Positions 1,611-51,615 of a DNA stretch of 64,000 nucleotides are shown piece by piece. Position numbers and translations under genes: made by a program. The stretch is taken from the IMG/VR virus record IMGVR_UViG_3300045988_181613. One strand, written 5' to 3'. The stretch is from a virus. Positions within the stretch are counted from its first letter, which is position 1, and every line of letters begins with the position of its first letter. Under the pieces are notes generated by a model that ran no database searches, was not told where the DNA came from, and saw nothing but the letters and a program-made list of their open reading frames with translations.

Positions 1611-3302
1611 TCAATTCTTATAAAGATTTTTTGCAATATATTCCATTGCAGCAGCTTCAATAGGATTATTCTCTATAGATTTTTCATATTGATCAAAAGG
1701 ATTCTCTCCATCCTCACCCGGTACGGGTTCTGCATACATAGCAGAATTCATTTCATTCATCTTTGCCGTTTGATATACAGAATTTAAAATAGTATCTGTA
1801 TCAGGATTAAATTGTCTTCCAGAATATTTACGGAAAATATCTTCCATAGATACCATTCCACCATCTAATTTCTTTTTATCTAATTCAACTTGTTTAGATT
1901 CATCTTCAATTTCAATTCCGGTAAAGGCGAATTCAAATTCTCCATCAAACATTTCATCCACTATATAATGATTGATGATGTTCTGGAGAAAAATCAATAA
2001 AGGTTTTAATCCTTTATCTCTACTATGATTCAAACGCTCATGTTGTCCATTTTGACCAAATATTTGTGTTTGATCTTTAAATTGGAATCCAAGTTCAGAA
2101 GGATCGATTCGATAAACAGAACAAGTAATTACAATCAAGAATTTTACCCATTCTGTAAATTCCATATCTCTATTTGATTTCTGTAAGTCAACCCATTCCA
2201 AATCTATTCCTTGCATTATAGGAGTTCGATGTGAATTACCTACCCCTCTCATTGTTTGGGTCCAAGCTTGCCGAAATTCATTTAAAGTTGCATTATCGAT
2301 ATTTCCATTCTTAATATTAATAAAACCTTTCGGTTGAGAACCTTTAGAAAAGAAATTACCGTTATATTGCATACCCCAAAGAATCCAGGTTATAATCTCA
2401 ACAAGAGTTTCAAGTTCCGAAGTACCGTAACCATTTCTATAAATAGATGTGCTTTTATTTCGAATACCATAGCCTAACTCCCATGGATAAAAAACTACTG
2501 ATTCATGAGTTGTAGGATTCTGAAGAATTTGTCCCTGCCAAGACATACAAAAACGGGGTAGATAACCTTTGAAACGATATCTTTCAAATTCATCGCGATA
2601 GCGTGGATCTACACTGTCTAATAGTCTGATCAAAGAGGCATCAATAGCCCGAAAACGTGCTAAATTCCATCCACGATCTCTTGTTATTTCAAAAGCTAAC
2701 TGATCTAACGTCAAGCTATCAAATACAATTTTCCTTCCAAAATCTTGGAAAGTATCATAATTAGCCCATTTATCATTTAAACCACCATTTTCAAGAAACT
2801 TGATTATATGCTCAATCTTTCCCTGGTCGCCTTCTTCAATTTCTTTGTTCTGAAAATCCTTCTCGAAAAGACTTTTCTTTTTTCTTATGGTGTAACCTTC
2901 TTTCTGTTCATCAACACTAAAATGCAGGAAATTTTGTACTTGTTCTACTCGTGTATTAACAACACTACGAACAATAAAAATATCCCCCATTCTTCTTAAT
3001 GTATCAAAAGAAAGGGCACCTCTATTTTCTTTATATCCTTTTCCAGAATCGCCTACATCATTTGGATTGAAAAAAATTGATTGCATTTTTCCATTATCCA
3101 ATCTATCTCGTTGATTCAAAAAAAGATTTGCTTTCATGATCTCTTCAAAATCATTAGAAGCGGCCATTTGTTGAATTTTTGACTCAAGTAATGTTGGAAT
3201 GGTCTTTTGCAATCCCGAAATTTCTTCCAAAGACAGACCAGCCAGACCTTTTAAAAGGTCTGGCTTTTCTTCTTTATTTATCTTCTTTCTACGACTGCTC
3301 AT
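1611..3302 (-). CDS. Portal protein (putative)
   Basis: 563 aa; size and position upstream of head-morphogenesis gene; segment ALSFDTLRRMGDIFIVRSVVNTRVEQVQNF resembles portal-family core. No search run. Confidence 0.6.
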   Translation of the reverse strand: MSSRRKKINKEEKPDLLKGLAGLSLEEISGLQKTIPTLLESKIQQMAASNDFEEIMKANLFLNQRDRLDNGKMQSIFFNPNDVGDSGKGYKENRGALSFDTLRRMGDIFIVRSVVNTRVEQVQNFLHFSVDEQKEGYTIRKKKSLFEKDFQNKEIEEGDQGKIEHIIKFLENGGLNDKWANYDTFQDFGRKIVFDSLTLDQLAFEITRDRGWNLARFRAIDASLIRLLDSVDPRYRDEFERYRFKGYLPRFCMSWQGQILQNPTTHESVVFYPWELGYGIRNKSTSIYRNGYGTSELETLVEIITWILWGMQYNGNFFSKGSQPKGFINIKNGNIDNATLNEFRQAWTQTMRGVGNSHRTPIMQGIDLEWVDLQKSNRDMEFTEWVKFLIVITCSVYRIDPSELGFQFKDQTQIFGQNGQHERLNHSRDKGLKPLLIFLQNIINHYIVDEMFDGEFEFAFTGIEIEDESKQVELDKKKLDGGMVSMEDIFRKYSGRQFNPDTDTILNSVYQTAKMNEMNSAMYAEPVPGEDGENPFDQYEKSIENNPIEAAAMEYIAKNLYKN

Positions 3303-8305: not shown

Positions 8306-9496
8306 TTATAGTGAGGTCAGATAATTATAAAAATTATATGTTATTAAATAATCTAAAGGATTATTCATAGTTCCTGTAGAAACAGGTTCAGGATATTCAT
8401 CCAGAAATTTTTTAAGTATCATAGGATCGAATGATTTAAAATTACCTGATTTCAAAGCTTCGATAAAAGATAATTCAAAAAATTCCCCTCTCTTAAAACA
8501 TTTAGAAAGATGTTTTAAGAAGTTTTTCCTTCCTCCAAACCAAACCTCTCCCGATACAGCTAAACAATGATAAGAATTGTTTTTTATTTGAGTTCCAAAA
8601 ATTCTGTGCATAATAGGAAAATAAATCTTCTCAGCACAGAAAGTAAGTGGATAATAAATAAGAGAGTACAAGAATGATACAAATTTAGAATACTTTCCAA
8701 TTATACAATTCTTCTCAAAAGTTTTTCTAAAACCATAAGCATAATACCAATTGTTAGCACCTCTCTTTACTTTTATCTTATATTTAAGATGATCTTCTCG
8801 ATCTTTTATTCTATCCCAAGGTTTTACTTTATTTGTATTAAAAGTGGGGAGATAAGTCCAGTAGTGATAAATAGAAGACCAATATGGATTATAAATCGTG
8901 TGATTGTTTTTAATCACGAAATCTAATATATTGGTCAATATTTTTTGTGACATTGCGACAATCCAGGGGTCTTTAATAATTTTACCCTTTGAAAGGAAAG
9001 AAAGAATAGGAGCGAGATTCCAAATTTGATCTTGACTTACAAAGGGTGAGAAACAAGGATCTTCATTTTTACCTTCATAAAGCATTCCATATGCACTTGT
9101 AATCTCTTCAGTTTTAAAAGATTCTTTCATTTGGATTGAAATATCATCTCTTAAAAAGAATCCAGGCTCATAACTAAAATTTATACCTGGATATTGTTCA
9201 AATGCCTTTTTTAAGGGAGTTTCAGATAAGCGATTTAGAGCCTGTAAAACATCTCCAATACGATTGATACATATCTCCTGATTTTGTTCTTCACAAACTA
9301 AATACTTAGAAACTAAGTAAAGAAGATATTGTGCCATGTTAATAGTTCCATCTCCAACATTTAAAGATTTAGATTTACCATCTTTAAATACAACAAAGGA
9401 AGCAGGAATATTAGATCCCTTTATACACAGACCTTCAACTATAAAATAATCATAGAAGAGGTCTGTGTATTCACTGTATTTTTCTTCATTTGTCAT
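8306..9496 (-). CDS. Hypothetical protein
   Basis: 396-aa ORF, no motif recognised. Confidence 0.6.
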   Translation of the reverse strand: MTNEEKYSEYTDLFYDYFIVEGLCIKGSNIPASFVVFKDGKSKSLNVGDGTINMAQYLLYLVSKYLVCEEQNQEICINRIGDVLQALNRLSETPLKKAFEQYPGINFSYEPGFFLRDDISIQMKESFKTEEITSAYGMLYEGKNEDPCFSPFVSQDQIWNLAPILSFLSKGKIIKDPWIVAMSQKILTNILDFVIKNNHTIYNPYWSSIYHYWTYLPTFNTNKVKPWDRIKDREDHLKYKIKVKRGANNWYYAYGFRKTFEKNCIIGKYSKFVSFLYSLIYYPLTFCAEKIYFPIMHRIFGTQIKNNSYHCLAVSGEVWFGGRKNFLKHLSKCFKRGEFFELSFIEALKSGNFKSFDPMILKKFLDEYPEPVSTGTMNNPLDYLITYNFYNYLTSL

Positions 9497-11453: not shown

Positions 11454-11732
11454 TTATTTTTTAGTATATCTATCTCTGAACTCTTCTATATCATAGGTCA
11501 TCTCAATATCCAGAAATCTGGGATTTATATCCTTTATTATTCGAAATTTAACTATAGTCTCTCTATAGTCATTTCTCCTTACATCCAATACTTTTACCTC
11601 TTCGAGAGACTCTTCGAAAGGATCATTCGTCTTTTTCCTATAGATAGCTCCTACTTTAGGTGCTTTGAATACTTCGATTATCATAAAGAGTGTTCCGAGA
11701 ATGCCGATTATAATTCCTATTGATATCATCAT
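11454..11732 (-). CDS. Hypothetical protein with N-terminal TM helix
   Basis: MMISIGIIIGILGTLFMIIEVF; box 11757..11764 is 25 nt upstream. Confidence 0.55.
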   Translation of the reverse strand: MMISIGIIIGILGTLFMIIEVFKAPKVGAIYRKKTNDPFEESLEEVKVLDVRRNDYRETIVKFRIIKDINPRFLDIEMTYDIEEFRDRYTKK

Positions 11733-11756
11733 ATCTTTCTTCTTTTTTGTTATGCC

Positions 11757-11764
11757 TAAAGATA
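11757..11764 (-). promoter_or_regulatory. TATCTTTA promoter box
   Basis: GCAGTATCTTTAGG, 25 nt upstream of ATG 11732; first gene after the 1.5-kb non-coding region. Confidence 0.6.
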
Positions 11765-11821
11765 CTGCTTTTCTTCGTGCGAGCCTCGAAAGTGGATTGT
11801 TTTTCTTTTAAAATTCTATTC

Positions 11822-12067
11822 TATCTTAAAAATCGGACATAAGATTTGGCCTAACCTCGGTGTATTTTTAAGCATGTCTTAGTTTTATCTTAAAAATCGG
11901 ATACTACTTTAATAGTTCACCCTTGTATCCGCCCTAATTTTTTGCCTATATAAAGACCTTTTTGAAAATCTTATATACTCTCGAGTCTGTGTTTTTGAGT
12001 GGAGTTCCATGGTACGGGACTCAAATTTTTGCTTATATAGGTGATTTTGAAAATTTTATATATAGGA
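11822..12067. repeat. Two pairs of direct repeats in the non-coding region
   Basis: TATCTTAAAAATCGGA at 11822..11837 and 11886..11901 (exact). About 45-nt imperfect copies TTTTTGC(C/T)TATATA...TTTTGAAAAT(C/T)TTATATA at ~11936..11980 and ~12023..12067. Confidence 0.8.
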
Positions 12068-12256
12068 GCTATTGGGTTTTGGGAGCTTGTGTTTCATAAT
12101 CAATCTCAAAAAATAAGGATTGTTCTTTTTGGGTTTTTTGTACAAATATTGCTCCATAACGCTCCATCAATATAATCTATCTTCTTGATAATCAACATCT
12201 ATCGCTCTCGTCTTGATAGATCCTCTCGATCTCCCTTGATAAATTTCATTTCATCG

Positions 12257-12294
12257 CTTCTATCTATATATATTATAATATATATAGATAGAAG
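12257..12294. repeat. 38-bp perfect palindrome
   Basis: CTTCTATCTATATATATTA|TAATATATATAGATAGAAG checked base by base. Confidence 0.95.
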
Positions 12295-12339
12295 GTATCA
12301 TCTGTTTGATCGAGTATATCAATCCCTCCCTTCGTTTTA

Positions 12340-12700
12340 ATAGGTTTTATTTAATCGCTCGTTTCTATCTGATTAGTTATATTGATAGCTTTTATTTAAT
12401 CGATTAAACTAATCAAAACAAGCTTATTTATCGATTCTATTTAATAGATCTTATCTATTAACTGCTTGATAATGATCGATGTTATCTAATAGGTGTTCTC
12501 TATCATATGGGCTCTCTCGATAGCTATGGGTTAATCGATATTGTCTCTTATATAGATAAGGTTTCTTGATCACGCTCGATCGCTTTTATCTCTCAATCCA
12601 ATCGAATCCCTCTATCCTTTCAATCAATCTTATCTGGTATTCCCTCAATCATCTTTACCTCTCTCCTCGATTGATTCTATCGATCTCCCATTCCTTTTCT
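12340..12700. repeat. Iteron-like field rich in ATCGAT / TTATTTAATCG / CTTGATA motifs
   Basis: TTTTATTTAATCG twice (12347, 12391). 14-nt palindrome TTTAATCGATTAAA (12395..12408). ATCGAT recurs near 12431, 12474, 12533 and 12679. Confidence 0.6.
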
Positions 12701-12839
12701 CGATCTCCTCGATAACTTCCCTCTATCCTTCTTTCCCTATCGACTACCTCTATTTCTCCCATAGGGAATATCTATCAATAGTTCCCCTCTTACTGGAGTT
12801 CCAAACTTGACTTTTCTTATTACATTTTTATTCTCTTTC

Positions 12840-13091
12840 TATACCTTTATTAGGATTAATACTATCAAAAGGTTTCCAGTTCCCTTACATATATACCTTA
12901 TCCCTATTCTTCTTAGTCTATTTCTTGCCTAATCCTATACTTATCTCTTACCATATTATTTCTTATTTTAAGGCGATCTAATACATTTACTCCATCTTAC
13001 CCTACCTTCTATACCTTATACCTAATATCATTCTTTATACCTTCTTATATTGATCTTATTCCTTTATTATTTTCTTTTCTCCCTATACCTT
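12840..13091. repeat. Array of five exact TATACCTT octamers in a G-poor, pyrimidine-rich tract
   Basis: Copies at 12840, 12892, 13010, 13036, 13084 (plus variants TATACTTA, TATACCTA); 76-nt G-free run 12976..13051. Confidence 0.8.
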
Positions 13092-13222
13092 TGATCAATA
13101 TTTTCTATCTACATTTTATTCCTTCTTTCTTGATTATCTCCTATCTATCAATTAGGATCGATAATATCTATCTTATGGAGCAAAAGAAAAGGTAGTATTT
13201 CTACTACCTTATTTCTATTTGA

Positions 13223-13681
13223 TCAATTCATGTCCTCTTCTTGTACATATTCGATCTTTTCTTCTTGGTTGGCTAACCAATCCAACCTTTTCTGTTTGAA
13301 AAACTTATCAAATATTCTCTTGGTATTGTGGCTCGGAGTTCCCAAAACCTTGCAGCACTTGTAGATGGTACAATTCTTATCCATATAATGCTTTTCGAAA
13401 TACTTATAGATTTCATAAGCTTGCGATCCGTCTCTTGGAATATCGTAGCTTATTGATCTTCCTTTTCTCTTTTTAGGTTCTTCTACCTTCATTGCTAAAT
13501 CCTGATAGATGATTGCTGGTAGCAAACTTACCTGTTGGATTTCCTGGATCTCTTCAATTTCCTCTGATTGATTTTCTTTCTTAGCCTGATCGATTAAAAC
13601 GATCAATTCTTCTTTTGCATACTTGGTATAATTCTTGATACCTAATTTGCTTGCTTCTTTTCTTAATTCATTCGTTGTCAT
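13223..13681 (-). CDS. HeH/Rho-N (SAP-like) domain DNA-binding protein
   Basis: MTTNELRKEASKLGIKNYTKYAKEELIVLI matches the HeH/Rho_N motif; paralogous ends with 54196..54882. Confidence 0.55.
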   Translation of the reverse strand: MTTNELRKEASKLGIKNYTKYAKEELIVLIDQAKKENQSEEIEEIQEIQQVSLLPAIIYQDLAMKVEEPKKRKGRSISYDIPRDGSQAYEIYKYFEKHYMDKNCTIYKCCKVLGTPSHNTKRIFDKFFKQKRLDWLANQEEKIEYVQEEDMN

Positions 13682-13846: not shown

Positions 13847-14177
13847 CGGCTTATTCCTATACCTACAAAAATATTTTGCTTAAAAATGCTTCAGGCTCTC
13901 CTAATAAATACTACTGTATTTTTGATAGATTTTATTTATACCCTTAATAGATCTACTTTATCCTCTGATTTATTTTAAAGCGATTTAAACAGCGATCTAT
14001 ATTTTAGCTTAGGAAGACTATAGTTTTAATATTTTTCTTCAGTAAATCGCTTTAAAACTATATATATGCGATTCATTTATATATTTCATTATGCTATTTT
14101 GATAAATAGTTTCTATCAATCATAGCGATCCTATAGATATTTTCTATCATTATTTTCATCCTTTTTAATCCAAATAT

Positions 14178-14209
14178 TTTGGCTCGCCAATAAATAAGCC
14201 CTATATTTA
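14178..14209 (+). promoter_or_regulatory. Plus-strand promoter (TTTG, 20 nt, TATATTTA)
   Basis: ATTTTGGCTCGCCAATAAATAAGCCCTATATTTAGG; mirrors the minus-strand TTTGGCGAGC promoters; 25 nt from ATG 14235. Confidence 0.55.
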
Positions 14210-14234
14210 GGTATAAATAAAAACAAACAATAAA

Positions 14235-14892: not shown

Positions 14893-14936
14893 AATCGTAT
14901 ATCTTTTAATTGTTATTATTGCTTCTTTTAGTATTA

Positions 14937-14944
14937 TAAAGATA
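14937..14944 (-). promoter_or_regulatory. TATCTTTA promoter box
   Basis: 45 nt upstream of ATG 14892; upstream TTTTGGCGATCC. Confidence 0.6.
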
Positions 14945-15026
14945 CTGCTTATTTATAGGATCGCCAAAATAATATTCTTAAAAAAGATAAAAATTATCAT
15001 CGAAAATATCTATCTGATCAATTAGA

Positions 15027-15380
15027 TTATGTATAGAGATCTATCACTTTTTCCAAAGTAATTAATGGATCATTCAAATAAATTAATACCAGTACCTTAA
15101 AAGATAAAGGATATTTATTTCTTCCTCTCCCTATTTTAACATATATAGATTCTAATATTTCAAAATCTCCTTTCAAGAAATGAACGGCCCATTCATGAAA
15201 AGTTTTTTCTAATTTTGGGCCATCTATTTCCAAATTGTAGTTTTCAATATCACCAATCCAACAAGGGTTCAAATTTTTCAAAAGATCCATCAATAAAATA
15301 TCTTTTGAAAGATAATTTATAAGGTAAATGGAAGTACCACGTTTACCTTTACTTATAAATAAAGGAATTTTATTATTCAT
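15027..15380 (-). CDS. Hypothetical protein
   Basis: 117-aa ORF with box 15422..15429 upstream. Confidence 0.55.
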   Translation of the reverse strand: MNNKIPLFISKGKRGTSIYLINYLSKDILLMDLLKNLNPCWIGDIENYNLEIDGPKLEKTFHEWAVHFLKGDFEILESIYVKIGRGRNKYPLSFKVLVLIYLNDPLITLEKVIDLYT

Positions 15381-15421
15381 GATTAATTCTTTTAATGTTT
15401 ATGTTTCTTTTTATTATATCA

Positions 15422-15429
15422 TAAAGATA
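15422..15429 (-). promoter_or_regulatory. TATCTTTA promoter box
   Basis: 42 nt upstream of ATG 15380. Confidence 0.6.
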
Positions 15430-15519
15430 CAACTTATAGCTCTCCTATGCAAATTATTTTGCTTAAAAAAGATAAAAATAGTGATAGAAAGTTCCACTCT
15501 ATAAGAGAAATAGAATTGA

Positions 15520-15999
15520 TCATTTAAAGGAAACTATAATCTCCAATTCATTATTTTCTGGATCACTATCACGTTTAGTAATAGAAAAAGGATTGCAATC
15601 AATAGATATTTCAAACCCTAATTCTTTTGTTAAATTTTCTTCCAGTTTTGATACCTTAGAAGCGAATCTATCCTGAATTGTTTCGAATCGCTTCGGCGAT
15701 TCATATGGTGGTCTGTAAATATATTTTTTGAAGGTACATTTAAAGTAAACGTTAAAAGCTGATTGATCCCCTTTTGGATCAATATAAGGATTATAATAAT
15801 TCCCCATCCAATCCTCATAAACTGGATTTTTAAAACCACTTTTATGAAGAATTTCTTTTATTTTAGAAAGATGTTGGATTGCTCTTTCTTTATTTTCTTC
15901 ATACCATTTCTGATATTTTCTCATATCTTCTATTTCGATCAAATTTCTATCGATCATTTTCTGGACTTTTTGAGAGCCGTTTTCAATTACTTTTTCCAT
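15520..15999 (-). CDS. Hypothetical protein
   Basis: 159-aa ORF with box 16029..16036 upstream. Confidence 0.6.
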   Translation of the reverse strand: MEKVIENGSQKVQKMIDRNLIEIEDMRKYQKWYEENKERAIQHLSKIKEILHKSGFKNPVYEDWMGNYYNPYIDPKGDQSAFNVYFKCTFKKYIYRPPYESPKRFETIQDRFASKVSKLEENLTKELGFEISIDCNPFSITKRDSDPENNELEIIVSFK

Positions 16000-16824: not shown

Positions 16825-17421
16825 TCATTCAATAGTTATCAGTCCATTCAACATCTTTATACAGTTGGTCAACTCAGTTATCATTTCAAAGTCACTACCA
16901 ACTACCTTGGCTTCAATGGCTCTTGTAAGATAAGAAATGGTCTTCTCCATTCTTCTGATTATCTCTACATTAGGAGAGGGTTGCTTGATATAATTTTTCA
17001 GCTCCTCTATTTTCCTCTCCAGTGCTTCTTGATTCTTTTTCAATTCCTCATTCTCACTTTTAAGGATATCATTCTCCTGGTACAATTTTTTGTTTTCTTC
17101 TTCAGGGGAATTTTCATCGGGAATAATTGACCTTATCGGCCCTGGACTAACAATAGGAGGTAATTGTTTTTGTACATCAATAGTCACTATTTCTTTCCCT
17201 AATGAAGCAGCAACCTCTTTTAAAAGAGTAGATGATCGTTTCCCTCTCACTGAATTTTTCACCAGAAAAATATCCGATAAAACCTTTGAAATTTTCTTAC
17301 CATCTATAGTATTAATTAATGCCTTTCGAATACCATCTTTTTTAATAATATCAGTGACAGTACCTGCACTAATTTCACCTTTTTCGTCAACAAATTTGAC
17401 AATTTTCCCAGCTGTGATCAT
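16825..17421 (-). CDS. Coiled-coil protein, translationally coupled to the sigma factor gene
   Basis: 198 aa; ENDILKSENEELKKNQEALERKIEELK coiled coil; 4-nt overlap with 17418..17945. Confidence 0.55.
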   Translation of the reverse strand: MITAGKIVKFVDEKGEISAGTVTDIIKKDGIRKALINTIDGKKISKVLSDIFLVKNSVRGKRSSTLLKEVAASLGKEIVTIDVQKQLPPIVSPGPIRSIIPDENSPEEENKKLYQENDILKSENEELKKNQEALERKIEELKNYIKQPSPNVEIIRRMEKTISYLTRAIEAKVVGSDFEMITELTNCIKMLNGLITIE

Positions 17422-17945
17422 AATTCTATATTTTTAAAGTGTTCCAATATTCTTGTTCTTACAAGGTGTATTCTTGATTTTAATGTTCCCATTGGGAGCT
17501 CAAATATTTCTGATAACTCTTCATAGGAAAATCCATTTGCAAATCCAAGCATAATTTTTCGGTTTATGCTTGATTCATTCTTTTCCAGATATTCCAACAA
17601 CTTATTATAAAGAAACCTATTTTCATCCTGGGTATCAGAATATTTTTCATTTATTTCCCAAGAAATATTTTCATTTTCTTGACTGGATGTCTTATTTACA
17701 GCGGAACTTCCTAAATAATTAAGAGCTCTATTACGTGCTAATATACACAACCAAGCTTGAAAAGAACCCTCTCCTTCCCATGTAAATTTATCATGTTTTT
17801 GTAAAGCTGTTAAAAAGATATGGGAGGAAATATCTTCAACTTCTTCATCATCCAAACTTCCTGCAAATTTCTTTCTTAGATAATTTTGCAGGAAGTTCCA
17901 GTATTCTTTATAGTGGATTGCGATATCCTCTTTTACGTCAAACAT
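17418..17945 (-). CDS. RNA polymerase sigma factor, ECF-like (sigma-70 regions 2 and 4)
   Basis: Region 2-like VEDISSHIFLTALQKHDKF...FQAWLCILARNRALNYL; region 4-like FSYEELSEIFELPMGTLKSRIHLVRTRI. Confidence 0.7.
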   Translation of the reverse strand: MFDVKEDIAIHYKEYWNFLQNYLRKKFAGSLDDEEVEDISSHIFLTALQKHDKFTWEGEGSFQAWLCILARNRALNYLGSSAVNKTSSQENENISWEINEKYSDTQDENRFLYNKLLEYLEKNESSINRKIMLGFANGFSYEELSEIFELPMGTLKSRIHLVRTRILEHFKNIEL

Positions 17946-30292: not shown

Positions 30293-32683
30293 CTAAATTG
30301 TACAATACACGAGTTCGTGACGAGCTCTTGTTACCGCTACAAATCTCAAACATTTTTCTGAATATAATGCTTTTTCCGATGTAGCCTTCGGTGATGGGAT
30401 TAAATTTTGATTTAAAAAGAATACCCTGTCAGCTTCCAAACCCTTACTTTTATGAATAGTAGAAAGAACGATCCCTTCTGTTTCATCTACAAAAATTTCA
30501 CTGATCCTATTTCTAAGTTCAAAAATACTTGGCCATCGTTTGAACAGCAAACGAAGAATCATACATTTCTCTTCTAAAAGAGCATAACTGGGGTGATTGA
30601 TAGCAACAGCCTCTGGAATTCCTTTTTCCATCAAAGATTTTTTCTTTTCTAATAAAAGAACATCTAAGTCTTTGATTTCATTGATTTTATCCAGAATTAA
30701 TAATAAATTTTCACCAAAATCTTTTCCCTTTATTGTAGCTTTCTTTTTTAACTCTAAAAATATGATAAATGCTGCAACCAGTGGAATGTTATTACGACAA
30801 AGAACAAAATCGCCTTCTTGCGCTTCTTTCAACTCTCCATTTCTTACAACACCTTCTTGCGCAAAAGGTGAAGCTTCTATTTTATCTGCAAAGGTCTTCT
30901 TAGCTTCCGCAACGATAGCCTTATCACAACGATAGGAGATACTCAAAGGTAAAGTAATAGTATTTTCCATTCTTTTATAAGATTCAAATATTTCCACTGT
31001 ACTTCCCATAAAAGAATAAATACAATTATGCGTTAAAATACCATCAGCCACATAATTTTGATTCCATCCAACTTCTAAAGAAAAGACTTTTCCTTTATAA
31101 GAAATTTTCTCCCAATTTTCAATATCTTTATAAATAGGCTTCGCCCTTGAACATTGAGAAGCTTTGTTATAATTAAAACCATCATAAATTATTACCTGCA
31201 TTAATTCTGGAAATATATTACAAGCATATGTATTAAACATATAAGAAATACCCGTTTTCCAACGTGAATCTTCTTTTTCTTTTTTAAGAAAAGGACATTC
31301 TATTTTTCTATCAAATACCTTTAATAGATTTATTGCATTTTGTTTTAATTCCCCATTAAATCTATTAAAAAAAGTGTTAAGCCCCTCTTGACCAAACATA
31401 ACATCTTTCTCTTTTCTGCAATTAAAAATAGTTTGAGGGATTCCAAATTTATATGAATAATATAATTCATCTAACCTGGCTTGTGATTTATCATCATACA
31501 AATTTAAAAGCCAAAGTCTATCTGCCTCTTCGCAATAAAATCGAAATAAAAGTCCTCCAGATCTTTTTGCACCTGTTACATAAGGAGTAATTCCTATCCG
31601 AAACCAATCTCCTTTTTGCATTAAATAAAGAGCAAATTTATTTTTTATAGAAGGTTTCCATCGCACATAACATATATGCTCCGGTGTATATTTAGAAGTA
31701 AAATCACCTGTTGTTACTTTATAAAGAATATCATCATATTCTCTCTGGGCAATTTTTAAAATTTTACTTTTAGAATTTTCACACAATTTTTTATATTGCT
31801 GTAATGATTTTTTCTTAATACGTTCATAATTTCCGACAAAACAATTATCATGCCGATATTCATAAGAAACAACACTTTCTCCAATTTGAACGTCTTCAAT
31901 GTTTTTTTTGGTTCCATCTGACATTAAAATCTTAGTACCTTCAGGTTGACATTGATAAGGATCTCCTACTGTAATAAATCGACCTCCTGGTTTAATATAA
32001 TTCAAGATCATTTCCCTTTGCAAAATATTAGAATCTTGTGCTTCATCTGTAAACACGACCCCATACTTAGGAAAATTCTCAGAGGGTATCATCATATAAG
32101 GAATCCAAAGCATATCGGTAAAATCCATAATAAATTCACTGACTATAGAAATCTTCTTTAATTGTTTTCTCCATTCTGCTTCAATCAAAGTTATGTCCTC
32201 AATCATTCTCTCTCGAAATTCTATATCTTTTTCCCAACAAATAGGAGGTATATCGTTTCGATAATCAATCGAAAGCATTTGCCGTAAAAAATTCCAAATT
32301 ACTTGGAGTTCGAATAAATATTTAGCTTGCTTTTTACTTCCCCCCTCTATGTCGTCCAAATCTAAAACTTTCTTTCCAATTTGAAAACATTTATTCTCTG
32401 AAATCTTAAACCTTACTCGGACATTTTGTAAAAGAGTTTTTAATCCTTTACTATGAAACGTTGCCACTTCAACTTGTTCGGGAACTTTAGTTTTCAATTC
32501 TTCTGCTATACTTTTATTGAAAGCCATGAATAAAACTCTTTTTCCCGGTGAAGTTCTTTTATTTAATTCCAGTAAAGTACTACTTTTGCCAGCGCCTGCT
32601 GTTGCTTCTACAACTATATTTTTTCTGGTATTTTCATACGCATCAAAAATTGCAAGCTGATATTTACTCCATTCTTTTCCCAT
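30293..32683 (-). CDS. UvrD/PcrA-type SF1 helicase containing an intein
   Basis: Walker A ATAGAGKS; FTDEAQD; motif III split as VGDPYQ / CIYSFMGS; TIHKSKGLEADRVF; FVAVTRARHEL. Confidence 0.9.
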   Translation of the reverse strand: MGKEWSKYQLAIFDAYENTRKNIVVEATAGAGKSSTLLELNKRTSPGKRVLFMAFNKSIAEELKTKVPEQVEVATFHSKGLKTLLQNVRVRFKISENKCFQIGKKVLDLDDIEGGSKKQAKYLFELQVIWNFLRQMLSIDYRNDIPPICWEKDIEFRERMIEDITLIEAEWRKQLKKISIVSEFIMDFTDMLWIPYMMIPSENFPKYGVVFTDEAQDSNILQREMILNYIKPGGRFITVGDPYQCQPEGTKILMSDGTKKNIEDVQIGESVVSYEYRHDNCFVGNYERIKKKSLQQYKKLCENSKSKILKIAQREYDDILYKVTTGDFTSKYTPEHICYVRWKPSIKNKFALYLMQKGDWFRIGITPYVTGAKRSGGLLFRFYCEEADRLWLLNLYDDKSQARLDELYYSYKFGIPQTIFNCRKEKDVMFGQEGLNTFFNRFNGELKQNAINLLKVFDRKIECPFLKKEKEDSRWKTGISYMFNTYACNIFPELMQVIIYDGFNYNKASQCSRAKPIYKDIENWEKISYKGKVFSLEVGWNQNYVADGILTHNCIYSFMGSTVEIFESYKRMENTITLPLSISYRCDKAIVAEAKKTFADKIEASPFAQEGVVRNGELKEAQEGDFVLCRNNIPLVAAFIIFLELKKKATIKGKDFGENLLLILDKINEIKDLDVLLLEKKKSLMEKGIPEAVAINHPSYALLEEKCMILRLLFKRWPSIFELRNRISEIFVDETEGIVLSTIHKSKGLEADRVFFLNQNLIPSPKATSEKALYSEKCLRFVAVTRARHELVYCTI
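31025..31951 (-). mobile_element. Intein (309 aa, class 1) in UvrD helicase motif III
   Basis: Cys1 at 31951..31949 (CQPEGTKILMSDGTKKNIEDVQIG); block B YTPEHICYV; ends VADGILTHN (Asn codon 31027..31025) followed by Cys+1. Central ~170 aa has no LAGLIDADG or HNH motif. Confidence 0.85.
31878..31915. repeat. 38-nt stretch identical to 52673..52710 (intein block A region)
   Basis: TCTCCAATTTGAACGTCTTCAATGTTTTTTTTGGTTCC in both; encodes GTKKNIEDVQIG(E/D) of the UvrD and DnaE inteins. Confidence 0.9.
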
Positions 32684-33432: not shown

Positions 33433-36180
33433 CTACTTGGTATCTCTATAACTACTAATTAATTCTAACGATACATCATCTACAAATCCCTTATTAATTG
33501 TATCTGCAACTTCTTTCTTTTCTTTCAATAATTTCCAAATTTTCATATCAATGGTTTCAGTACTTAACAAATAATAAATATTAATGTTTGATTTTTGTCC
33601 CATTCTTTCAAGTCGACCAATCGCTTGAACTAAATCACTTGGTTTCATAGGAAGCTCAATAATTAGTGCATTAGAACAGGCTTCTTGCAAACCATCAACT
33701 CCAGTGCCAATACACTGAATATTTGCAAATAAAATTCTTGTATTTGGATCAGTAATAAACTCCTCCTTAACTTTCATCTTTTTAGAAAGAGAAAGATCCC
33801 CTGTGATCAAACAACTATTCTCTATTTGTTGAGCCATTTCTATTAAAGGTTTCTTATGGATACCGAATACAATCAATTTTTCATCTTCATTTGCTTCCAT
33901 CCATTCTTTTATAAAAACAATCATTTGTTTTTGTTTCCCTTCTACAGAAAGCTGGAACAAAACATTTAATTGAACCAATTGATCCGCTCTTAATGCTTTT
34001 TCTATCTGATCTGGATTTACCTTTTCCAAATAATTAATAAGATCTTCCTCAGCCTGTGTATAAACTTTTTTATTGCTGATTTTCATTTCAATGAGCTGTT
34101 CTGTAATAGGAGGGAGCTCGTTTAATACTTCTCTCTTTTCTTTTCTAAAATAACAGTAGTGTCTTAACAACAAATGGAGTTCTTCAATATTACTACAACA
34201 AGAAACATCCCTTCCAAACTCTGTTACTTTCGCATTACAGTACCTGAAATCAAAATAATTGCTATCTGGAAATATATCAGTAAAGCGACCTAAAAATTTC
34301 AAAACATTTTTAAGTTCGCTTGGACGATTCATTATTATTGTACCACTTAAACCAATTCGTGTATTTATTTTAGAAGCTATTTGAATAAAAGCTTGGCTTC
34401 TCATAGCTTGACGATTTTTTAGAAGGTGAATTTCATCACCTACAATTGCATAATATTTATTTTGAATAAGTTCTGGAAATTTTACAATAACTTGCTTCTT
34501 TACTTTATTCAATAATTTTTTCTCTTCAAATTTTCCCAATAAATCATAGTTGATAACAACAACATCAGCTTCCCAATTCTGTTTTTTACCTGAATTAATT
34601 ATAGAAAGAGATCTATTTGGATTCCAAAGACTCCATTCTTTTTTCCATCCTTCCTTTACTGTTGAAGGGCAAACAATAATACAGGGAAACAAATCAAGTA
34701 ATTCTAAATAAATAATGGTTTGTGCTGTATTATGTGTCAATAAGCAATCTTCTCCACAAACATATAAAGCATCAGGGTTAGATACTTTAATACACTGCAT
34801 TTCCTTTTTTCCAATATATTCAACTTTGCAAATACTTCTATTAGGTGCTGTTTTTTTTGAATCGAGCAATAAATCTCTTTTTCTTTTTAATCTACAAGGA
34901 ATTATATCAGAGGGAAGATTGATTCCAATTCTATAATGTTCTCTACATTCCACTTTTTCTTTTTTAGAATTTACATAATAACTTCTTTTAGTTCTAATAG
35001 GATTGTGTATTCCTCCCAAACTTTTAACAATAAAGCCAACTTGCTCAACCAATTTTTTAGAAGTACAACCGAACTCTATAAGACCTGATTTAGAAATATA
35101 ACCATCAGAATCTAATATTCCTTGTAAGATCGCTAAACGAATTTCTTTTTTATTATAAATATAATCTTCAGGAATTTCTTTTTCATAAGAATATTTTTCC
35201 ATTAAATTATATTGTTCCAATATTTTTTTTACTCGATTTTGTCTTTTACTTATAGAATCAATAATATTGTAATCAAGTTTCTCTCCTGTCTTTTTCAAAA
35301 AACAACCTTCTGGGAACTTTAAATAAGTCAATATTTCTTTATCCGCACAAGATACTTTGGGATTTCTCCTTAAACAACCGTCTCCAATTAAAAAACCTAA
35401 AGTATAAGGATCAAGTAAAATTTTTCTTTCTTCAAATTCAATAGGATTTTTTATTATAGGGAGTTTCCATTTCCAATATCCCTTACTTTCATGTCCTTTT
35501 ATTCTTGTATTATTGCAAGATTTACCTCTTAATGGTGCATTCATTATTTCTTTTAAAGTTATGACTTGCAATGGATTCGTTTGCTTCCATGCACGAACAG
35601 ACCAAAAATGTTCATCGCAACATTCGACTGAAGATCCATCTGTAAAAGTTACTTTATAACAATCTTTTATTCCTTGAGGATAAACAGCTTCTATTTTTTG
35701 AGAATATCCATCTGAACCAAAAATTATATCGCCAGATTTTAAATCTCCAAAATTAACTAATCCTTTAGGTGTCGGAATTTTCATATCCAAAGGCTGAGCC
35801 TTACCCAAACCTACATCTGATCCATTTATACAATTTCCATGATTAAGCATGTAATGGATACCTTCGATCTGATAATCACGAGGTATCCTTTTTAAATTTA
35901 ATTCTGGTATCAGTAGTTTAACATCTTGAATAGAAATTTTTTCTCTAATAGGAGAAAGCTTAACATCTCTTTCCCTTTCTGGATATGCTTCTTTGAATTT
36001 ATTTTCCTCAATAAATTTATTGAGTATACCAATATTCCAAATTTCGGCTTTGACATACCATTCAAAATTTGCAGGATTCCAACTTCCTTTAAACCTGTTT
36101 TTAATCTCATTTAAGAGATCTTGATTATAGTCAAAACCGAAATAATAATAACCTTTCTCCTTATAAAAATATCTTTTCAT
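33433..36180 (-). CDS. SNF2-family helicase containing an intein
   Basis: DYQIEGIHYM; motif I split as DVGLGK / TAQTIIY; DEIHLLKN; LSGTIIMNRPSEL; QAIGRLERMGQKSNINIYYL. Confidence 0.9.
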   Translation of the reverse strand: MKRYFYKEKGYYYFGFDYNQDLLNEIKNRFKGSWNPANFEWYVKAEIWNIGILNKFIEENKFKEAYPERERDVKLSPIREKISIQDVKLLIPELNLKRIPRDYQIEGIHYMLNHGNCINGSDVGLGKAQPLDMKIPTPKGLVNFGDLKSGDIIFGSDGYSQKIEAVYPQGIKDCYKVTFTDGSSVECCDEHFWSVRAWKQTNPLQVITLKEIMNAPLRGKSCNNTRIKGHESKGYWKWKLPIIKNPIEFEERKILLDPYTLGFLIGDGCLRRNPKVSCADKEILTYLKFPEGCFLKKTGEKLDYNIIDSISKRQNRVKKILEQYNLMEKYSYEKEIPEDYIYNKKEIRLAILQGILDSDGYISKSGLIEFGCTSKKLVEQVGFIVKSLGGIHNPIRTKRSYYVNSKKEKVECREHYRIGINLPSDIIPCRLKRKRDLLLDSKKTAPNRSICKVEYIGKKEMQCIKVSNPDALYVCGEDCLLTHNTAQTIIYLELLDLFPCIIVCPSTVKEGWKKEWSLWNPNRSLSIINSGKKQNWEADVVVINYDLLGKFEEKKLLNKVKKQVIVKFPELIQNKYYAIVGDEIHLLKNRQAMRSQAFIQIASKINTRIGLSGTIIMNRPSELKNVLKFLGRFTDIFPDSNYFDFRYCNAKVTEFGRDVSCCSNIEELHLLLRHYCYFRKEKREVLNELPPITEQLIEMKISNKKVYTQAEEDLINYLEKVNPDQIEKALRADQLVQLNVLFQLSVEGKQKQMIVFIKEWMEANEDEKLIVFGIHKKPLIEMAQQIENSCLITGDLSLSKKMKVKEEFITDPNTRILFANIQCIGTGVDGLQEACSNALIIELPMKPSDLVQAIGRLERMGQKSNINIYYLLSTETIDMKIWKLLKEKKEVADTINKGFVDDVSLELISSYRDTK
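34729..35799 (-). mobile_element. Class 3 intein (357 aa) with LAGLIDADG endonuclease, in SNF2 motif I
   Basis: Starts with Ala (AQPLDMKIPTPKG, codon 35799..35797). Block B CDEHFW (Trp at B:12); block F MQCIKV (Cys at F:4); ends LLTHN (Thr at G:5; Asn codon 34731..34729) with Thr+1. LAGLIDADG motifs LGFLIGDGCL and LQGILDSDGYI. Confidence 0.8.
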
Positions 36181-50633: not shown

Positions 50634-50701
50634 CACTCAAATATCCGGCAGCGACCCACCTTGAAGTCTTTGCCGGATATTCTTCTTTATAGTTTTAATT
50701 G

Positions 50702-51487
50702 TTAACATTTTATTTCTCCTCTCAAATTATTAATTAATTCTTCTACGTTTTCAGGAACTTTATTAGATTTAGACGGGTTGTCTTCAGCCCATAGAGGTTG
50801 TAAATTTCTGAAATTGAAACAAATCCTTTGTTGCTCTAAATCAGAAAGATCAAAGTAATCACAAGGAATAATATGATCAACATGCCATTCTCCCATATTT
50901 TTCCAGGTCATTCCTTCTTGGAACTGAGATTCAAGATACTGCTTTAACTTTAAAGGAGTACATCCTAACAGTTCAATCGTTTTTGCACATTTACATTCTC
51001 CGATTAAAGCACTATGAAGTCTATGTCTTAATCTTGAGATTAACCTTTTTAAGGGATCTCTTTCTCTAATACGAGACCATTCCTTTATCTTTTCGGGATT
51101 GTTAATTCTATAATCCTTTATCTTTTCAATAATAATATCCCTGTTTTTTTGATAATATAAAGGATTATATTCTTTCATGTACCCAGGATTTTCTGTTCTA
51201 AAAATTTGTAACATGTTCTTATTACATTCTTTACAAGAACAACTATACCCATCAATTCTACCAATATCTTTATTAAAAAAACTTATTGGTAAGATTCTTC
51301 CACAACGTTGGCATTTCTTTTCAAAAACTTCTTTTTTTTCTTTATTTCTATTATTTTTTCTATTTTTAGCAACCTCCTTTTTATTACATTCCTTGCAATA
51401 AGAATTATATCCATCCTTACTGGCAGAACATTTATAAAATTCTGAGAGCTCCTTATTTTCTTTACATTTTATACAATATTTCATCAT
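50702..51487 (-). mobile_element. Zn-ribbon + HNH homing-endonuclease-like gene (family member 2), inside the dnaE intron
   Basis: Two CxxC...C(K)xC modules (CIKCKEN...YCKECN; CQRCGRI...CSCKECN), then LLGC...QFQEGMTW...WHVDHIIPC...NLQPLWAEDN. Confidence 0.8.
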
Positions 51488-51509
51488 TTAAAATTTTATC
51501 GTTCTTCTG

Positions 51510-51517
51510 TAAAGATA
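51510..51517 (-). promoter_or_regulatory. TATCTTTA promoter box inside the dnaE intron
   Basis: GCATTATCTTTACAG, 23 nt upstream of ATG 51487 of the intron-borne HNH gene. Confidence 0.5.
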
Positions 51518-51615
51518 ATGCTTTTATTTCAATTATTTGATCGTTTCTTGAAATTTTTAATATTTTTTCTGCCTCTATTTCAAATTCATCGTTTATTAAA
51601 ATCATTTCCACATCA

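What the first reader, a model, noticed from the sequence alone, without database searches (positions are those of the whole stretch)
11733..13222. 1.5-kb gene-free region with palindrome, iterons and extreme strand asymmetry: candidate origin or packaging/concatemer-junction region
Seen: there is no ORF of 60 aa or more in any frame, in a genome otherwise packed end to end. The region contains, in order: exact 16-nt direct repeats (11822, 11886); a ~45-nt imperfect duplication (11936, 12023); a 38-bp perfect palindrome (12257..12294); a field of ATCGAT, TTATTTAATCG and CTTGATA motifs including a 14-nt palindrome (12395..12408); and a pyrimidine-rich, G-poor tract (76-nt G-free run 12976..13051) carrying five exact TATACCTT octamers. 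It is flanked by a HeH DNA-binding gene and, 0.5 kb further, the only divergent promoter pair. Inference: this is a replication origin with iterons, the physical genome ends or pac/concatemer junction (T7-like short-repeat arrays look similar), or a binding platform for a phage regulator. I cannot distinguish these from sequence alone.
Basis: partly seen in the sequence, partly recalled or inferred. Interest (0 to 1): 0.65.

Follow-up and report, generated by a model that had tools for sequence, protein, structure and literature searches.

The report
Conserved palindrome-and-repeat control region in gut phage
This 1.5-kb gene-free stretch of an uncultured gut phage is a real, conserved DNA control region built around a perfectly symmetric TA-rich palindrome, most likely a replication origin joined to a promoter control module, though sequence alone cannot prove that function.

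Summary
Window 11733-13222 is the largest ORF-free gap in the window. It is not explained by stop-codon recoding and matches no Rfam family. All the listed repeats are present and far above chance.

The main new result is about the 38-bp palindrome. It marks a large clade of roughly 100-kb uncultured gut myoviruses. I found 16 sequence variants in about 50 related loci. Every variant is perfectly Watson-Crick symmetric over at least 16 bp per arm, with no mismatch and no G·T pair, although 14 of those 16 positions vary.

The true iteron is GATAGA (TCTATC on the + strand). It occurs 13 times against 0.8 expected, mostly in one orientation, and is also enriched in relatives. A 7 x 45-bp phased array runs directly into the palindrome.

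The half next to the downstream gene is 67-73% identical in relatives whose proteins are only 54-60% identical. It contains a promoter with two unique upstream boxes at fixed spacing.

Contigs that end at the palindrome are k=31 assembly artefacts, not genome ends.

Best reading: a lytic replication origin plus the control region of the adjacent operon (confidence about 0.4). A terminal-repeat or concatemer-processing site, or a purely regulatory platform, remain possible.

The parts
13223..13681 (-). Flanking gene for a 152-aa protein. It has an N-terminal HeH (Rho_N-like) motif, an acidic linker, a basic patch, a C-terminal 4-helix HTH-like domain and a conserved acidic tail (IQEEDMN). It is the candidate binder of the repeats.
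   Evidence: Pfam Rho_N E=9e-7. Alignment A2. AF2 model with pLDDT 72 and above 90 for residues 87-139. Foldseek gives only weak homeodomain and winged-HTH matches, E about 1. The gene lies next to the non-coding region in L011, L013, L014, L019 and L071, and is inverted in the last two.
13189..13210 (-). Intrinsic-terminator hairpin of the HeH gene: a 9-bp stem and 4-nt loop, followed by TTCTTTTGCT.
   Evidence: Terminator scan; inverted-repeat list.
13140..13172 (-). Conserved box just after the terminator: GATAGATAttATCGATCCTAatTGATAGATAG.
   Evidence: The same box follows the terminator in L011 and L013. BLAST 73% over 71 nt against L013.
12800..13135 (-). Tract that is purine-rich and C-poor on the gene-sense strand. 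It carries five AAGGTATA (TATACCTT on +) and the 76-nt G-free run at 12976-13051.
   Evidence: C-free tracts of 73 nt (L013) and 124 and 109 nt (L019) occupy the equivalent place. TATACCTT also sits within 210 bp of the palindrome in 17 of the 48 IMG/VR loci that have one, and in GenBank record L015, always on one strand.
12662..12713 (-). A 20-bp tandem repeat (2.5 copies) inside the only strain-variable part of the region (12600-12799, small indels).
   Evidence: TRF; variable columns per 100 nt; alignment A5.
12270..12584 (-). Seven 45-bp phased units, each starting A(T/G/C)C(G/T)AT(T/C)A(A/G/C)(A/C/G). The last unit contains the left arm of the palindrome.
   Evidence: the repeat finder family D1; rows of 45 nt and autocorrelation 0.51 at lag 45. 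The periodicity is not clearly conserved in L013 or L071.
12257..12294 (.). A 38-bp perfect palindrome, CTTCTATC-TATATATATTATAATATATATA-GATAGAAG. Two inverted GATAGA sites flank a 22-bp pure A/T core.
   Evidence: The DNA hairpin folds at -13.5 kcal/mol, z = -4.6. 16 variants in relatives are all perfectly symmetric.
12146..12256 (-). Further GATAGA and CTATCAAG sites, plus the conserved block GATAGAtgTTGATTATCAAG.
11925..12145 (-). Sequence-conserved blocks: AAACCCAAAAAGAA, CACAAGCTCCCAAAACCCAATAGC, and the duplicated TATATA..TTTTCAAAA..TATATA unit.
   Evidence: 67-73% nt identity to L017 and L018, against 57-61% for the 396-aa gene. Alignments, also shared with L019 and L071. RNAalifold finds no convincing structure.
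11823..11902 (-). Two TCCGATTTTTAAGAT boxes 64 bp apart, with the invariant ACACCGAGGTTAGGCC (11848-11863) between them.
   Evidence: The boxes are unique in the 64-kb window. The 64-bp spacing and the roughly 72-bp distance to the promoter are identical in L001, L010, L017 and L018.
11755..11765 (-). Promoter element GTATCTTTAGG of the downstream operon; the first gene, at 11454-11732, encodes a 92-aa protein.
   Evidence: The GTATCTTTAGG pattern gives 45 matches against 21 expected, mostly on the minus strand. The core TATCTTTA occurs 28 times on the minus strand, mostly just upstream of start codons. This is the only copy inside the region.

Best explanation
The region is a composite cis-acting DNA element that works as DNA, not as a coding region or a known RNA.

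Core (about 12150-13175): most likely the phage's lytic replication origin.
- A 22-bp pure A/T core is framed by inverted GATAGA sites. It forms a perfect palindrome that can melt easily or extrude as a cruciform.
- It is flanked by many mostly co-oriented GATAGA sites and a 45-bp phased array of ATCGAT-type sites. These would assemble a sequence-specific binding protein; the adjacent HeH+HTH protein is the obvious candidate.
- A strongly purine/pyrimidine-asymmetric tract lies on one side.

Part next to the downstream gene (about 11755-12145): the control region of the next operon. It has a phage-type promoter preceded by two unique boxes at fixed helical spacing and by other conserved blocks.

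Shown: the anatomy, its conservation, DNA-level symmetry selection, and the absence of a coding or known RNA function.

Inferred: that the proteins bind, that unwinding or initiation happens here, and which protein is involved.
For: 1. It is truly non-coding and has no Rfam match even at E<=1.
2. Among strains 95-98% identical, the region varies no more than the flanking genes, except at 12600-12799.
3. In relatives whose 396-aa protein is 54-60% identical, the half next to the downstream gene is 67-73% identical at nucleotide level. That is more than the coding DNA.
4. A perfect TA-rich palindrome was found in 48 of 79 IMG/VR relatives fetched (excluding the window's own strain), and in L015, L013/L017, L018 and L011. 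Many of the loci without one have less than 10 kb of upstream flank. There are 16 variants.
   - All 256 arm-pair cells at positions 1-16 are Watson-Crick, with 0 G·T and 0 mismatches.
   - 14 of the 16 positions vary.
   - Symmetry stops abruptly at positions 17-19.
   - Phages whose 396-aa-protein gene is 94-99% identical carry different perfect variants.
   - Zero G·T wobble and zero-loop symmetry argue for a constraint on duplex DNA (a cruciform or a symmetric complex), not on an RNA hairpin.
5. GATAGA is enriched and oriented: 13 vs 2 in the window and 25 vs 2 in L013+L017. It is also abundant in L019 and L071. No second cluster exists in the 64 kb.
6. A 7 x 45-bp phased array abuts the palindrome.
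7. A DNA-binding-type gene stays next to the region even where its orientation is flipped.
8. A terminator shields the region from upstream transcription, and no phage-type promoter lies inside it.
9. The phage carries its own replication set: PolA, primase, helicases, ligase, two RNase H, RecA/UvsX and SbcCD. A dedicated origin is therefore expected somewhere in the genome.
10. From general knowledge: lambda ori (iterons, AT-rich region, palindrome), HSV oriS/oriL (inverted initiator sites around an A/T centre) and lactococcal phage origins in ORF-free repeat regions have the same layout.
Against: - No recognisable initiator protein was found (Rep, O-like, DnaA-like or P4-alpha-like).
- The HeH/HTH protein has no significant structural match. 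It was not detected (tblastn, E<=1e-4) within the 10-kb flanks fetched for the 45%-identity group, which still keeps the palindrome.
- In L076 and L078 the palindrome sits in a short intergenic spacer with no iteron field. L019 lacks the perfect palindrome at the homologous place. The parts are therefore separable.
- The 45-bp periodicity is specific to this lineage.
- Nearly all genes lie on one strand, so cumulative GC skew gives no origin signal.
- The local skew change at the palindrome (G>C on its low-coordinate side, C>>G on its high-coordinate side, on the + strand) is not the sign expected of a bidirectional origin. It probably reflects motif content.
- There are no DnaA boxes in the region.
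Confidence: 0.4

Rival explanations
1. It is a boundary of a long terminal repeat, a concatemer-processing or packaging site, or a T5-type injection-stop region. The repeats bind terminase or host proteins. The palindrome forms a hairpin intermediate during end formation, as proposed for T7 concatemer processing (from memory: Chung, Nardone & Hinkle 1990).
For: T5's Repeat Region 3 is a 1.2-kb untranslated stretch full of direct repeats, inverted repeats and palindromes. It is better conserved than nearby ORFs and lies at the inner edge of the terminal repeat (10.1101/866236). That is the same general picture as here.

The region follows a run of small genes that each have their own promoter (13.7-24 kb). 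This resembles a pre-early or host-takeover block.

The portal is SPO1-like, and from general knowledge SPO1-type phages have long terminal repeats.

The flanks of the palindrome are mosaic in relatives. The palindrome lies within 4.2 kb of a contig end in 12 of 48 IMG/VR contigs, against about 4 expected.
Against: - Logan contig ends at the palindrome are exactly the k=31 artefact.
- IMG/VR contig starts near it are at non-homologous positions and fall in sequences repeated 0.8-1.25 kb apart, which explains the breaks.
- There are no DnaA boxes, a conserved feature that Davison reports in the T5 iss region.
- BLAST finds no similarity to any of 50,697 phage records.
- No second copy of the motif arrays exists in 64 kb.
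- No terminase gene was found nearby among the proteins scanned.
Confidence: 0.2
2. It is purely a transcription-control platform for the switch from the early/middle genes to the downstream (late) operon. The repeats are operators or enhancer-like sites for the HeH/HTH protein or the phage ECF-type sigma factor. There is no role in replication or packaging.
For: - The promoter at 11755-11765 has two upstream boxes that are unique in the window and have fixed spacing in four other genomes (L001, L010, L017, L018).
- The region lies between the replication and small-gene module and the portal-containing module.
- The phage encodes an ECF-like sigma factor at 17418-17945.
- The neighbouring protein looks like a DNA binder.
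- The conserved blocks show sequence conservation without RNA structure, which fits protein-binding sites.
Against: - 1.4 kb and more than 30 sites is far more than known phage operators need.
- A 34-38-bp zero-loop perfect palindrome whose sequence drifts while staying symmetric does not behave like an operator. An operator should conserve sequence.
- The palindrome persists in relatives where the promoter module is different or distant.
Confidence: 0.2
3. The region encodes one or more non-coding RNAs, for example a purine-rich unstructured transcript acting as a primer (R-loop) or as a sponge.
For: - The tract is C-free on the gene-sense strand, and this composition is conserved in L013 and L019 although the sequence is not.
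- There are two RNase H genes.
- In the 45%-identity group a conserved promoter is followed by about 1.1 kb without ORFs.
Against: - No Rfam match at any threshold.
- No phage-type promoter lies upstream of the tract, and a terminator precedes it.
- RNAalifold gives weak energies and no useful covariation on the conserved blocks.
- The palindrome shows no G·U tolerance.
Confidence: 0.08
4. The palindrome is cut or resolved as a cruciform or hairpin. Either a telomere-resolution-like reaction makes hairpin-ended molecules, or the phage's own junction nuclease cleaves it to create the first double-strand end for recombination-dependent replication.
For: - Both arms change in concert among near-identical phages. 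This is what copying one arm from the other through a hairpin would produce.
- From general knowledge, pure TA cores extrude cruciforms easily.
- The phage encodes an endonuclease VII-like protein, SbcCD and RecA/UvsX.
- The flanks are mosaic, consistent with a recombination hot spot.
Against: - No protelomerase or tyrosine recombinase was found among the window proteins scanned.
- The conserved 396-aa neighbour folds like an (alpha/alpha)-barrel glycosidase, not a recombinase.
- Template-switch correction of quasi-palindromes (general knowledge) would also keep the arms identical.
- About 40% of the genome lies outside the window and was not examined.
Confidence: 0.08

Closest known systems
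Iteron-type viral origins: lambda ori (four iterons, AT-rich region, palindrome) and HSV-1 oriS/oriL (inverted initiator sites around an A/T centre forming a palindrome). Compared from general knowledge.
   Same: - Repeated short binding sites next to an A/T-only segment.
- The A/T segment is framed by inverted copies of the repeated site, giving a palindrome.
- The element is unique in the 64 kb examined.
- A DNA-binding-type gene lies beside it.
   Different: - No recognisable initiator protein.
- The element is much longer (about 1 kb), with 13-25 mostly co-oriented hexamer sites and a 45-bp phased array.
- The palindrome sequence drifts quickly while staying perfect.
- Function has not been tested.
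Bacteriophage T5 injection-stop region, 'Repeat Region 3' (Davison, bioRxiv 10.1101/866236)
   Same: [quoted passage not shown]
- It is better conserved than neighbouring small ORFs.
- It is next to a block of small genes.
   Different: - No DnaA boxes.
- No sequence similarity.
- The position relative to a terminal repeat is unknown.
- T5 has many short palindromes rather than one long, perfectly maintained one.
Protelomerase target sites of linear plasmid prophages (N15 telRL, PY54, phiKO2). Compared from general knowledge.
   Same: - A single long palindrome per genome in non-coding DNA.
- An alternating pyrimidine-purine centre.
- A DNA-level symmetry requirement.
   Different: - No protelomerase gene was found in the window.
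- The phage looks virulent: no integrase or partition genes were seen.
- The arm sequence is not conserved, whereas tel sites are recognised sequence-specifically.
Human palindromic AT-rich repeats (PATRRs) (PMC1851657, abstract only)
   Same: AT-rich palindromes. The abstract links their secondary-structure (cruciform) propensity to genomic instability and chromosomal breakpoints.
   Different: PATRRs are hundreds of bp long and are accidents of genome structure. This one is 32-38 bp and is clearly maintained by selection or concerted copying.

Membership tests
Iteron-containing phage/plasmid replication origin | Several copies of a short repeated initiator-binding sequence | tested here: met
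   GATAGA occurs 13 times against 0.8 expected, and 25 times in L013+L017. There is also a 7 x 45-bp phased array. Binding itself was not tested.
Iteron-containing phage/plasmid replication origin | Adjacent A/T-rich DNA-unwinding segment | tested here: met
   A 22-bp pure A/T core sits within the palindrome at 12257-12294.
Iteron-containing phage/plasmid replication origin | Cognate initiator protein encoded by the replicon | tested here: inconclusive
   Only an uncharacterised HeH+HTH protein lies next to the region. No Rep, O or DnaA-like family matched in Pfam, PHROGs or NCBIfam for the window proteins scanned.
Iteron-containing phage/plasmid replication origin | Initiation of DNA synthesis maps to the element | not testable with these tools
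   This needs marker-frequency data, 2D gels or nascent-strand mapping.
T5-type injection-stop / terminal-repeat boundary region | About 1 kb untranslated region dense in repeats, inverted repeats and palindromes, conserved among relatives | tested here: met
   T5 description.
T5-type injection-stop / terminal-repeat boundary region | Paired DnaA boxes | tested here: not met
   No TTATCCACA-like site (1 mismatch or fewer) lies within 11733-13222.
T5-type injection-stop / terminal-repeat boundary region | Location at the inner edge of a long terminal repeat | not testable with these tools
   Needs read coverage and read-start data. Contig ends give no support.
Protelomerase (telomere resolvase) target site | Long palindrome with dyad symmetry at DNA level | tested here: met
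Protelomerase (telomere resolvase) target site | Protelomerase gene in the same genome, usually adjacent | tested here: not met
   No such family was found among the scanned window proteins. The 396-aa neighbour has a glycosidase-like fold. The part of the genome outside the window was not examined.
Plasmid-type partition centromere (sopC/parS arrays) | Phased array of repeats plus ParA/ParB genes | tested here: not met
   The array is present, but no ParA or ParB was found in the window.
Known structured RNA family / intrinsic terminator | Match to a covariance model, or a G+C-rich stem followed by a U-tract | tested here: not met
   No Rfam hit at E<=1. The palindrome has an A/T stem, no T-run and no G·U tolerance. 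Only 13189-13210 is terminator-like.

The most novel reading that the evidence does not exclude
The palindrome is a programmed hairpin or cruciform site. It is extruded and cut, or copied arm from arm, in each replication cycle. This creates the first DNA end for recombination-dependent replication, or hairpin-ended intermediates, in a virulent tailed phage. That mechanism would explain why both arms change together among nearly identical phages.
Probability: 0.1. Interest if true: 0.85.

Novelty: new variant of a known kind. Interest (0 to 1): 0.5.

Why it matters
The phage belongs to a large clade of uncultured human-gut phages of about 100 kb. IMG/VR alone holds 570 relatives of the neighbouring 396-aa protein. 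No cis-acting site has been described for this clade in the sources searched here.

A single, easily recognised palindrome with flanking repeats gives three things:
- a concrete candidate origin or processing site to test;
- a landmark for orienting and comparing these genomes;
- a practical warning, because the palindrome splits every k=31 assembly of these phages into two contigs.

The perfectly concerted evolution of the two arms is also a clean natural example of DNA-level symmetry maintenance.

Tried and rejected
- **Stop-codon recoding.** Rejected: all three stop codons are frequent in all frames.
- **Known RNA.** Rejected: no Rfam hit at gathering threshold or at E<=1 in the window, and nothing in the equivalent non-coding regions of the relatives. 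No tRNA.
- **Structured RNA in the conserved blocks.** RNAalifold gave weak results with no useful covariation.
- **Contig ends as physical genome ends.** Rejected as a k=31 artefact and as breaks in repeated sequence.
- **Similar DNA in 50,697 phage records.** None found.
- **Search of IMG/VR with the conserved 16-mer ACACCGAGGTTARGCC.** It recovered only the already known contig plus chance hits.
- **Metagenome and genome-collection scans.** They added almost nothing.
- **The 396-aa neighbour as a protelomerase.** Rejected: it shows only a weak match (E=0.02, TM 0.29) to (alpha/alpha)-barrel glycosidases, not a recombinase fold.
- **Identifying the HeH protein by PDB sequence search, Foldseek, PHROGs and NCBIfam.** Nothing significant.
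- **TGGAAC as an ECF-type -35 box.** It occurs mostly inside coding sequence, so it was dropped.
- **Bacteroidetes TAnnTTTG promoters.** None were found in the region with a -33 partner.
- **DnaA boxes.** None in the region.
- **Literature searches** for similar phage palindromes or for the related GenBank record name. Nothing relevant except the T5 paper.
- **MAFFT alignment of the palindromes.** It broke the centre register, so pairs were counted from centre-anchored windows instead.
Full report
**Context**

The window is part of a phage genome with 32% G+C. Almost every gene is on the minus strand, so transcription runs from 64000 towards 1.

From high to low coordinates it encodes:
- a replication and nucleotide-metabolism module: DNA polymerase I split by a homing-endonuclease insertion, primase, SNF2 and UvrD helicases with inteins, NAD ligase, SbcCD, RecA/UvsX, ribonucleotide reductase, two RNase H, and queuosine-type genes;
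- a run of small genes, each with its own promoter;
- an ECF-like sigma factor (17418-17945);
- the gene-free region;
- more small genes, a conserved 396-aa protein (8306-9496), a holin-like protein and an SPO1-like portal.

Related IMG/VR contigs cluster at 99-108 kb. The genome is therefore probably about 100 kb, of which the window shows 64 kb. No cultured relative exists in the phage collection searched. A Bacteroidota host is only a guess. It rests on the promoter style, on distant portal matches to Bacteroides and Chryseobacterium phages, and on MAG bins.

**The observation**

- The region is the largest ORF-free gap in the window.
- It is not produced by an alternative genetic code.
- The palindrome's 19-nt arms lie far outside what Markov simulations of the window give.
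- TATACCTT occurs five times here and nowhere else in the window on that strand.

Two things were missed.
- The strongest signal is TCTATC, which is GATAGA on the gene-sense strand. It occurs 13 times against 0.8 expected and is almost always in one orientation.
- The ATCGAT-type sites are not scattered. They head seven units spaced exactly 45 bp apart (12584 to 12270), and the last unit runs into the palindrome. Base autocorrelation is 0.51 at lag 45, against 0.42 or less at other lags.

The outer arms of the palindrome are themselves inverted GATAGA sites around a 22-bp pure A/T core.

**Anatomy on the gene-sense strand**

In order along the minus strand:
1. Stop codon of the HeH gene (13223).
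2. Intrinsic terminator (13210-13189).
3. A conserved box, GATAGATA..TCGATCCTA..TGATAGATAG.
4. A purine-rich, C-poor tract with five AAGGTATA (13135-12800).
5. A small, strain-variable 20-bp tandem repeat.
6. The 45-bp array.
7. The palindrome.
8. More GATAGA and TATCAAG sites.
9. Strongly conserved sequence blocks (12145-11925).
10. Two TCCGATTTTTAAGAT boxes 64 bp apart, with an invariant ACACCGAGGTTAGGCC between them.
11. A promoter element GTATCTTTAGG, 22 nt before the start codon at 11732.

The GTATCTTTAGG pattern gives 45 matches against 21 expected. Its core TATCTTTA occurs 28 times on the minus strand, mostly just upstream of start codons. It therefore marks the phage's main promoter class, and only this one copy lies inside the region.

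**Contig ends**

Six Logan contigs that carry the HeH gene all stop 947-958 nt after it. Each ends with the first 30 nt of the palindrome.
- A 38-nt perfect palindrone makes the eight internal 31-mers pair up as reverse complements.
- The last unambiguous 31-mer therefore ends at palindrome position 30.
- This is a property of k=31 assembly, not of the DNA ends.

Assemblies made with longer k read through the palindrome: ENA contig L001, IMG/VR contig L010/L021, and the window itself.

In the wider clade the palindrome lies within 4.2 kb of a contig end in 12 of 48 IMG/VR contigs, against about 4 expected. Those contigs start at different, non-homologous places, inside sequences that occur twice 0.8-1.25 kb apart in other contigs. 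Repeats again explain the breaks. I found no evidence for physical termini here, although such evidence could only come from reads.

**Conservation**

The region varies no more than its flanking genes among strains 95-98% identical, except for small indels at 12600-12799.

More distant relatives were reached in two ways.
- Through the HeH protein: only four clusters exist in 5.8 billion proteins.
- Through the 396-aa protein: 163 clusters in that database and 570 IMG/VR loci.

In L017 and L018 the 396-aa protein is 60% and 54% identical. The stretch from the palindrome to the promoter is 67-73% identical at nucleotide level, against 57-61% for the 396-aa gene itself. The box spacing of 64 bp and the box-to-promoter distance of about 72 bp are unchanged.

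The half of the region next to the HeH gene keeps its character rather than its sequence.
- L013, from the same sample as L017 and ending in the same palindrome, has 25 GATAGA against 2 TCTATC, and a 73-nt C-free run.
- L019 has C-free runs of 124 and 109 nt.

L019 and L071 show the same blocks and sites, with the HeH gene inverted but still adjacent.

TATACCTT also turns up within 210 bp of the palindrome in 17 of the 48 IMG/VR loci that have one, and in GenBank record L015. It is always on one strand, against about 2 expected.

**The palindrome**

A perfect, zero-loop, TA-rich palindrome of 32-38 bp was found in:
- 48 of the 79 IMG/VR relatives fetched, excluding the window's own strain;
- GenBank record MT835500.1;
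- the Logan relatives.

Many loci without one have less than 10 kb of upstream flank. The more distant group with genomes of about 150 kb lacks it.

There are 16 distinct complete sequences. With all 16 anchored on the centre:
- every one of the 256 arm-pair cells at positions 1-16 is a Watson-Crick pair;
- 14 of the 16 positions vary, with two to four pair types each;
- there is not a single G·T pair or mismatch;
- symmetry collapses at positions 17-19;
- sliding one arm by one base drops pairing to 12-16%.

Phages whose 396-aa-protein genes are 94-99% identical carry different perfect variants. The arms therefore change together and fast.

An RNA hairpin would tolerate G·U pairs and an asymmetric loop. 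An operator would conserve its sequence. What is conserved here is duplex symmetry and A/T richness. This points to a DNA structure (easy melting or cruciform extrusion) or to a process that copies one arm from the other.

The flanks of the palindrome are mosaic among otherwise similar phages. That fits a recombination-prone site.

Three exceptions show the parts are separable:
- L057 has a tandem duplicate of the palindrome unit, and L068 has two different palindromes 150 bp apart.
- L078 keeps only the palindrome, in a short spacer between small genes.
- L019 has lost the perfect form at the homologous place but has another AT-rich palindrome 400 nt away.

**Neighbouring proteins**

The 152-aa product of 13223-13681 has these parts:
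- an N-terminal HeH motif;
- a disordered acidic linker;
- a basic KKRKGR patch;
- a confidently modelled four-helix C-terminal domain;
- a conserved acidic tail.

Foldseek gives only weak homeodomain and winged-helix matches. It is a plausible DNA binder of unknown specificity.

The 396-aa protein was modelled at pLDDT 93. It shows only a weak match (E=0.02, TM 0.29) to (alpha/alpha)-barrel beta-1,2-glucanases, so it is not a telomere resolvase or recombinase. No integrase, ParA/ParB, protelomerase, initiator or terminase was recognised among about 60 window proteins scanned.

**Interpretation**

The part next to the downstream gene is best read as the control region of the next operon.

For the core I favour a lytic replication origin. 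The grounds are:
- a unique site in the 64 kb examined;
- an array of oriented repeats and a phased array abutting an A/T-only palindrome framed by inverted copies of the repeat;
- insulation from incoming transcription;
- a DNA-binding-type gene kept alongside;
- a phage that brings its own replication machinery.

This layout matches lambda ori and the herpesvirus oriS/oriL design (general knowledge).

It is not proven.
- No initiator was identified.
- The parts are separable in some relatives.
- Strand skew is uninformative because the genes are co-oriented.

The nearest described look-alike as a genome feature is the T5 injection-stop Repeat Region 3 (10.1101/866236). This region lacks the conserved DnaA boxes of that element. 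Its position relative to any terminal repeat cannot be judged from assemblies.

A purely regulatory role, a primer or sponge RNA, and a cut-or-copied hairpin site remain open at lower probability.

**Verdict**

This is a real, conserved and unusual cis-acting region. It is a new variant of a known kind of element rather than a new category. The concerted, perfectly symmetric evolution of the palindrome across a large gut-phage clade is the part most worth following up.

Noticed in passing
window 3240-3265: A 26-bp perfect palindrome, AGCCAGACCTTTTAAAAGGTCTGGCT, lies inside the 5' end of the portal gene, 37-62 nt after its ATG. The 60%-identity relative L017 has a covarying version, GCCAAATCTTTTAAAAGATTTGGC, at the same place in its portal gene (L017 8486-8509).
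   Followed up: no
window 48626-54096: DNA polymerase I is split into two ORFs (51787-54096 and 48626-50584). The first carries a GIY-YIG/homing-endonuclease-like C-terminal part. An endonuclease VII/HNH-like gene (50702-51487) lies between the two halves.
   Followed up: no
window 30293-32683 and 33433-36180: Both large helicases appear to carry inteins. The UvrD-like helicase has Intein_splicing and Hom_end_hint matches. The SNF2-like helicase has a LAGLIDADG_3 match. A relative's portal (L019) also carries an intein.
   Followed up: no
window 55588-56412, 59595-60269, 60275-61114: QueC-like, GTP cyclohydrolase I and QueE-like genes are present. Together they suggest a 7-deazaguanine modification of the phage DNA.
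   Followed up: no
window, minus strand, e.g. 6322, 8006, 10333, 11764, 13734, 14944, 15429, 16036, 16478, 16757, 17980, 18205, 20595, 21880, 23776: A phage promoter class with consensus (A)AATAAGCAGTATCTTTAG lies 20-45 nt before start codons. TATCTTTA occurs 28 times on the minus strand and 13 times on the plus strand. It is densest in the small-gene block at 13.7-24 kb.
   Followed up: partly
window 8306-9496: The widely conserved 396-aa protein has no Pfam, PHROG or NCBIfam match, yet gives a very confident model (pLDDT 93). Its only structural similarity is a weak one to (alpha/alpha)-barrel beta-1,2-glucanases and glucoamylases (E=0.02).
   Followed up: partly
L011 680-1160 and 1700-1950: Two copies of a conserved block of about 190 nt lie upstream of two small genes. 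Each contains a 13-bp stem (CGATTTAAAGAGAG ... CTCTCTTAAATCG) and ends in the GTATCTTTAG promoter. Similar sequence is present in the window at 13920-14230 and 14900-15520.
   Followed up: no
L042 2520-3695 (also L015 340-1500): In the group of relatives whose 396-aa protein is 45% identical, a conserved promoter (GGTATCTTTAGGGACTGTTTGAGGACTCTCCATAT) about 300 nt from the palindrome is followed by about 1.1 kb without ORFs. That stretch contains a G+C-rich hairpin (CGGAAGGGG...CCCCTTCCG). It may be a long non-coding transcript; Rfam has no match.
   Followed up: partly
L042 5722-6282 and 17764-18004: A truncated TnpB (OrfB_IS605 / Cas12f-like TNB) ORF and a full-length HEARO RNA (Rfam RF02033, 96 bits) are present in a relative. 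This indicates IS605/IscB-type elements inside these phage genomes.
   Followed up: no
L002-L007, L011, L013, L017, L018 (contig ends): Every Logan (k=31) assembly of these phages is split at the palindrome. Genome recovery for this clade from k=31 assemblies will systematically yield two pieces that end or start in the palindrome.
   Followed up: yes
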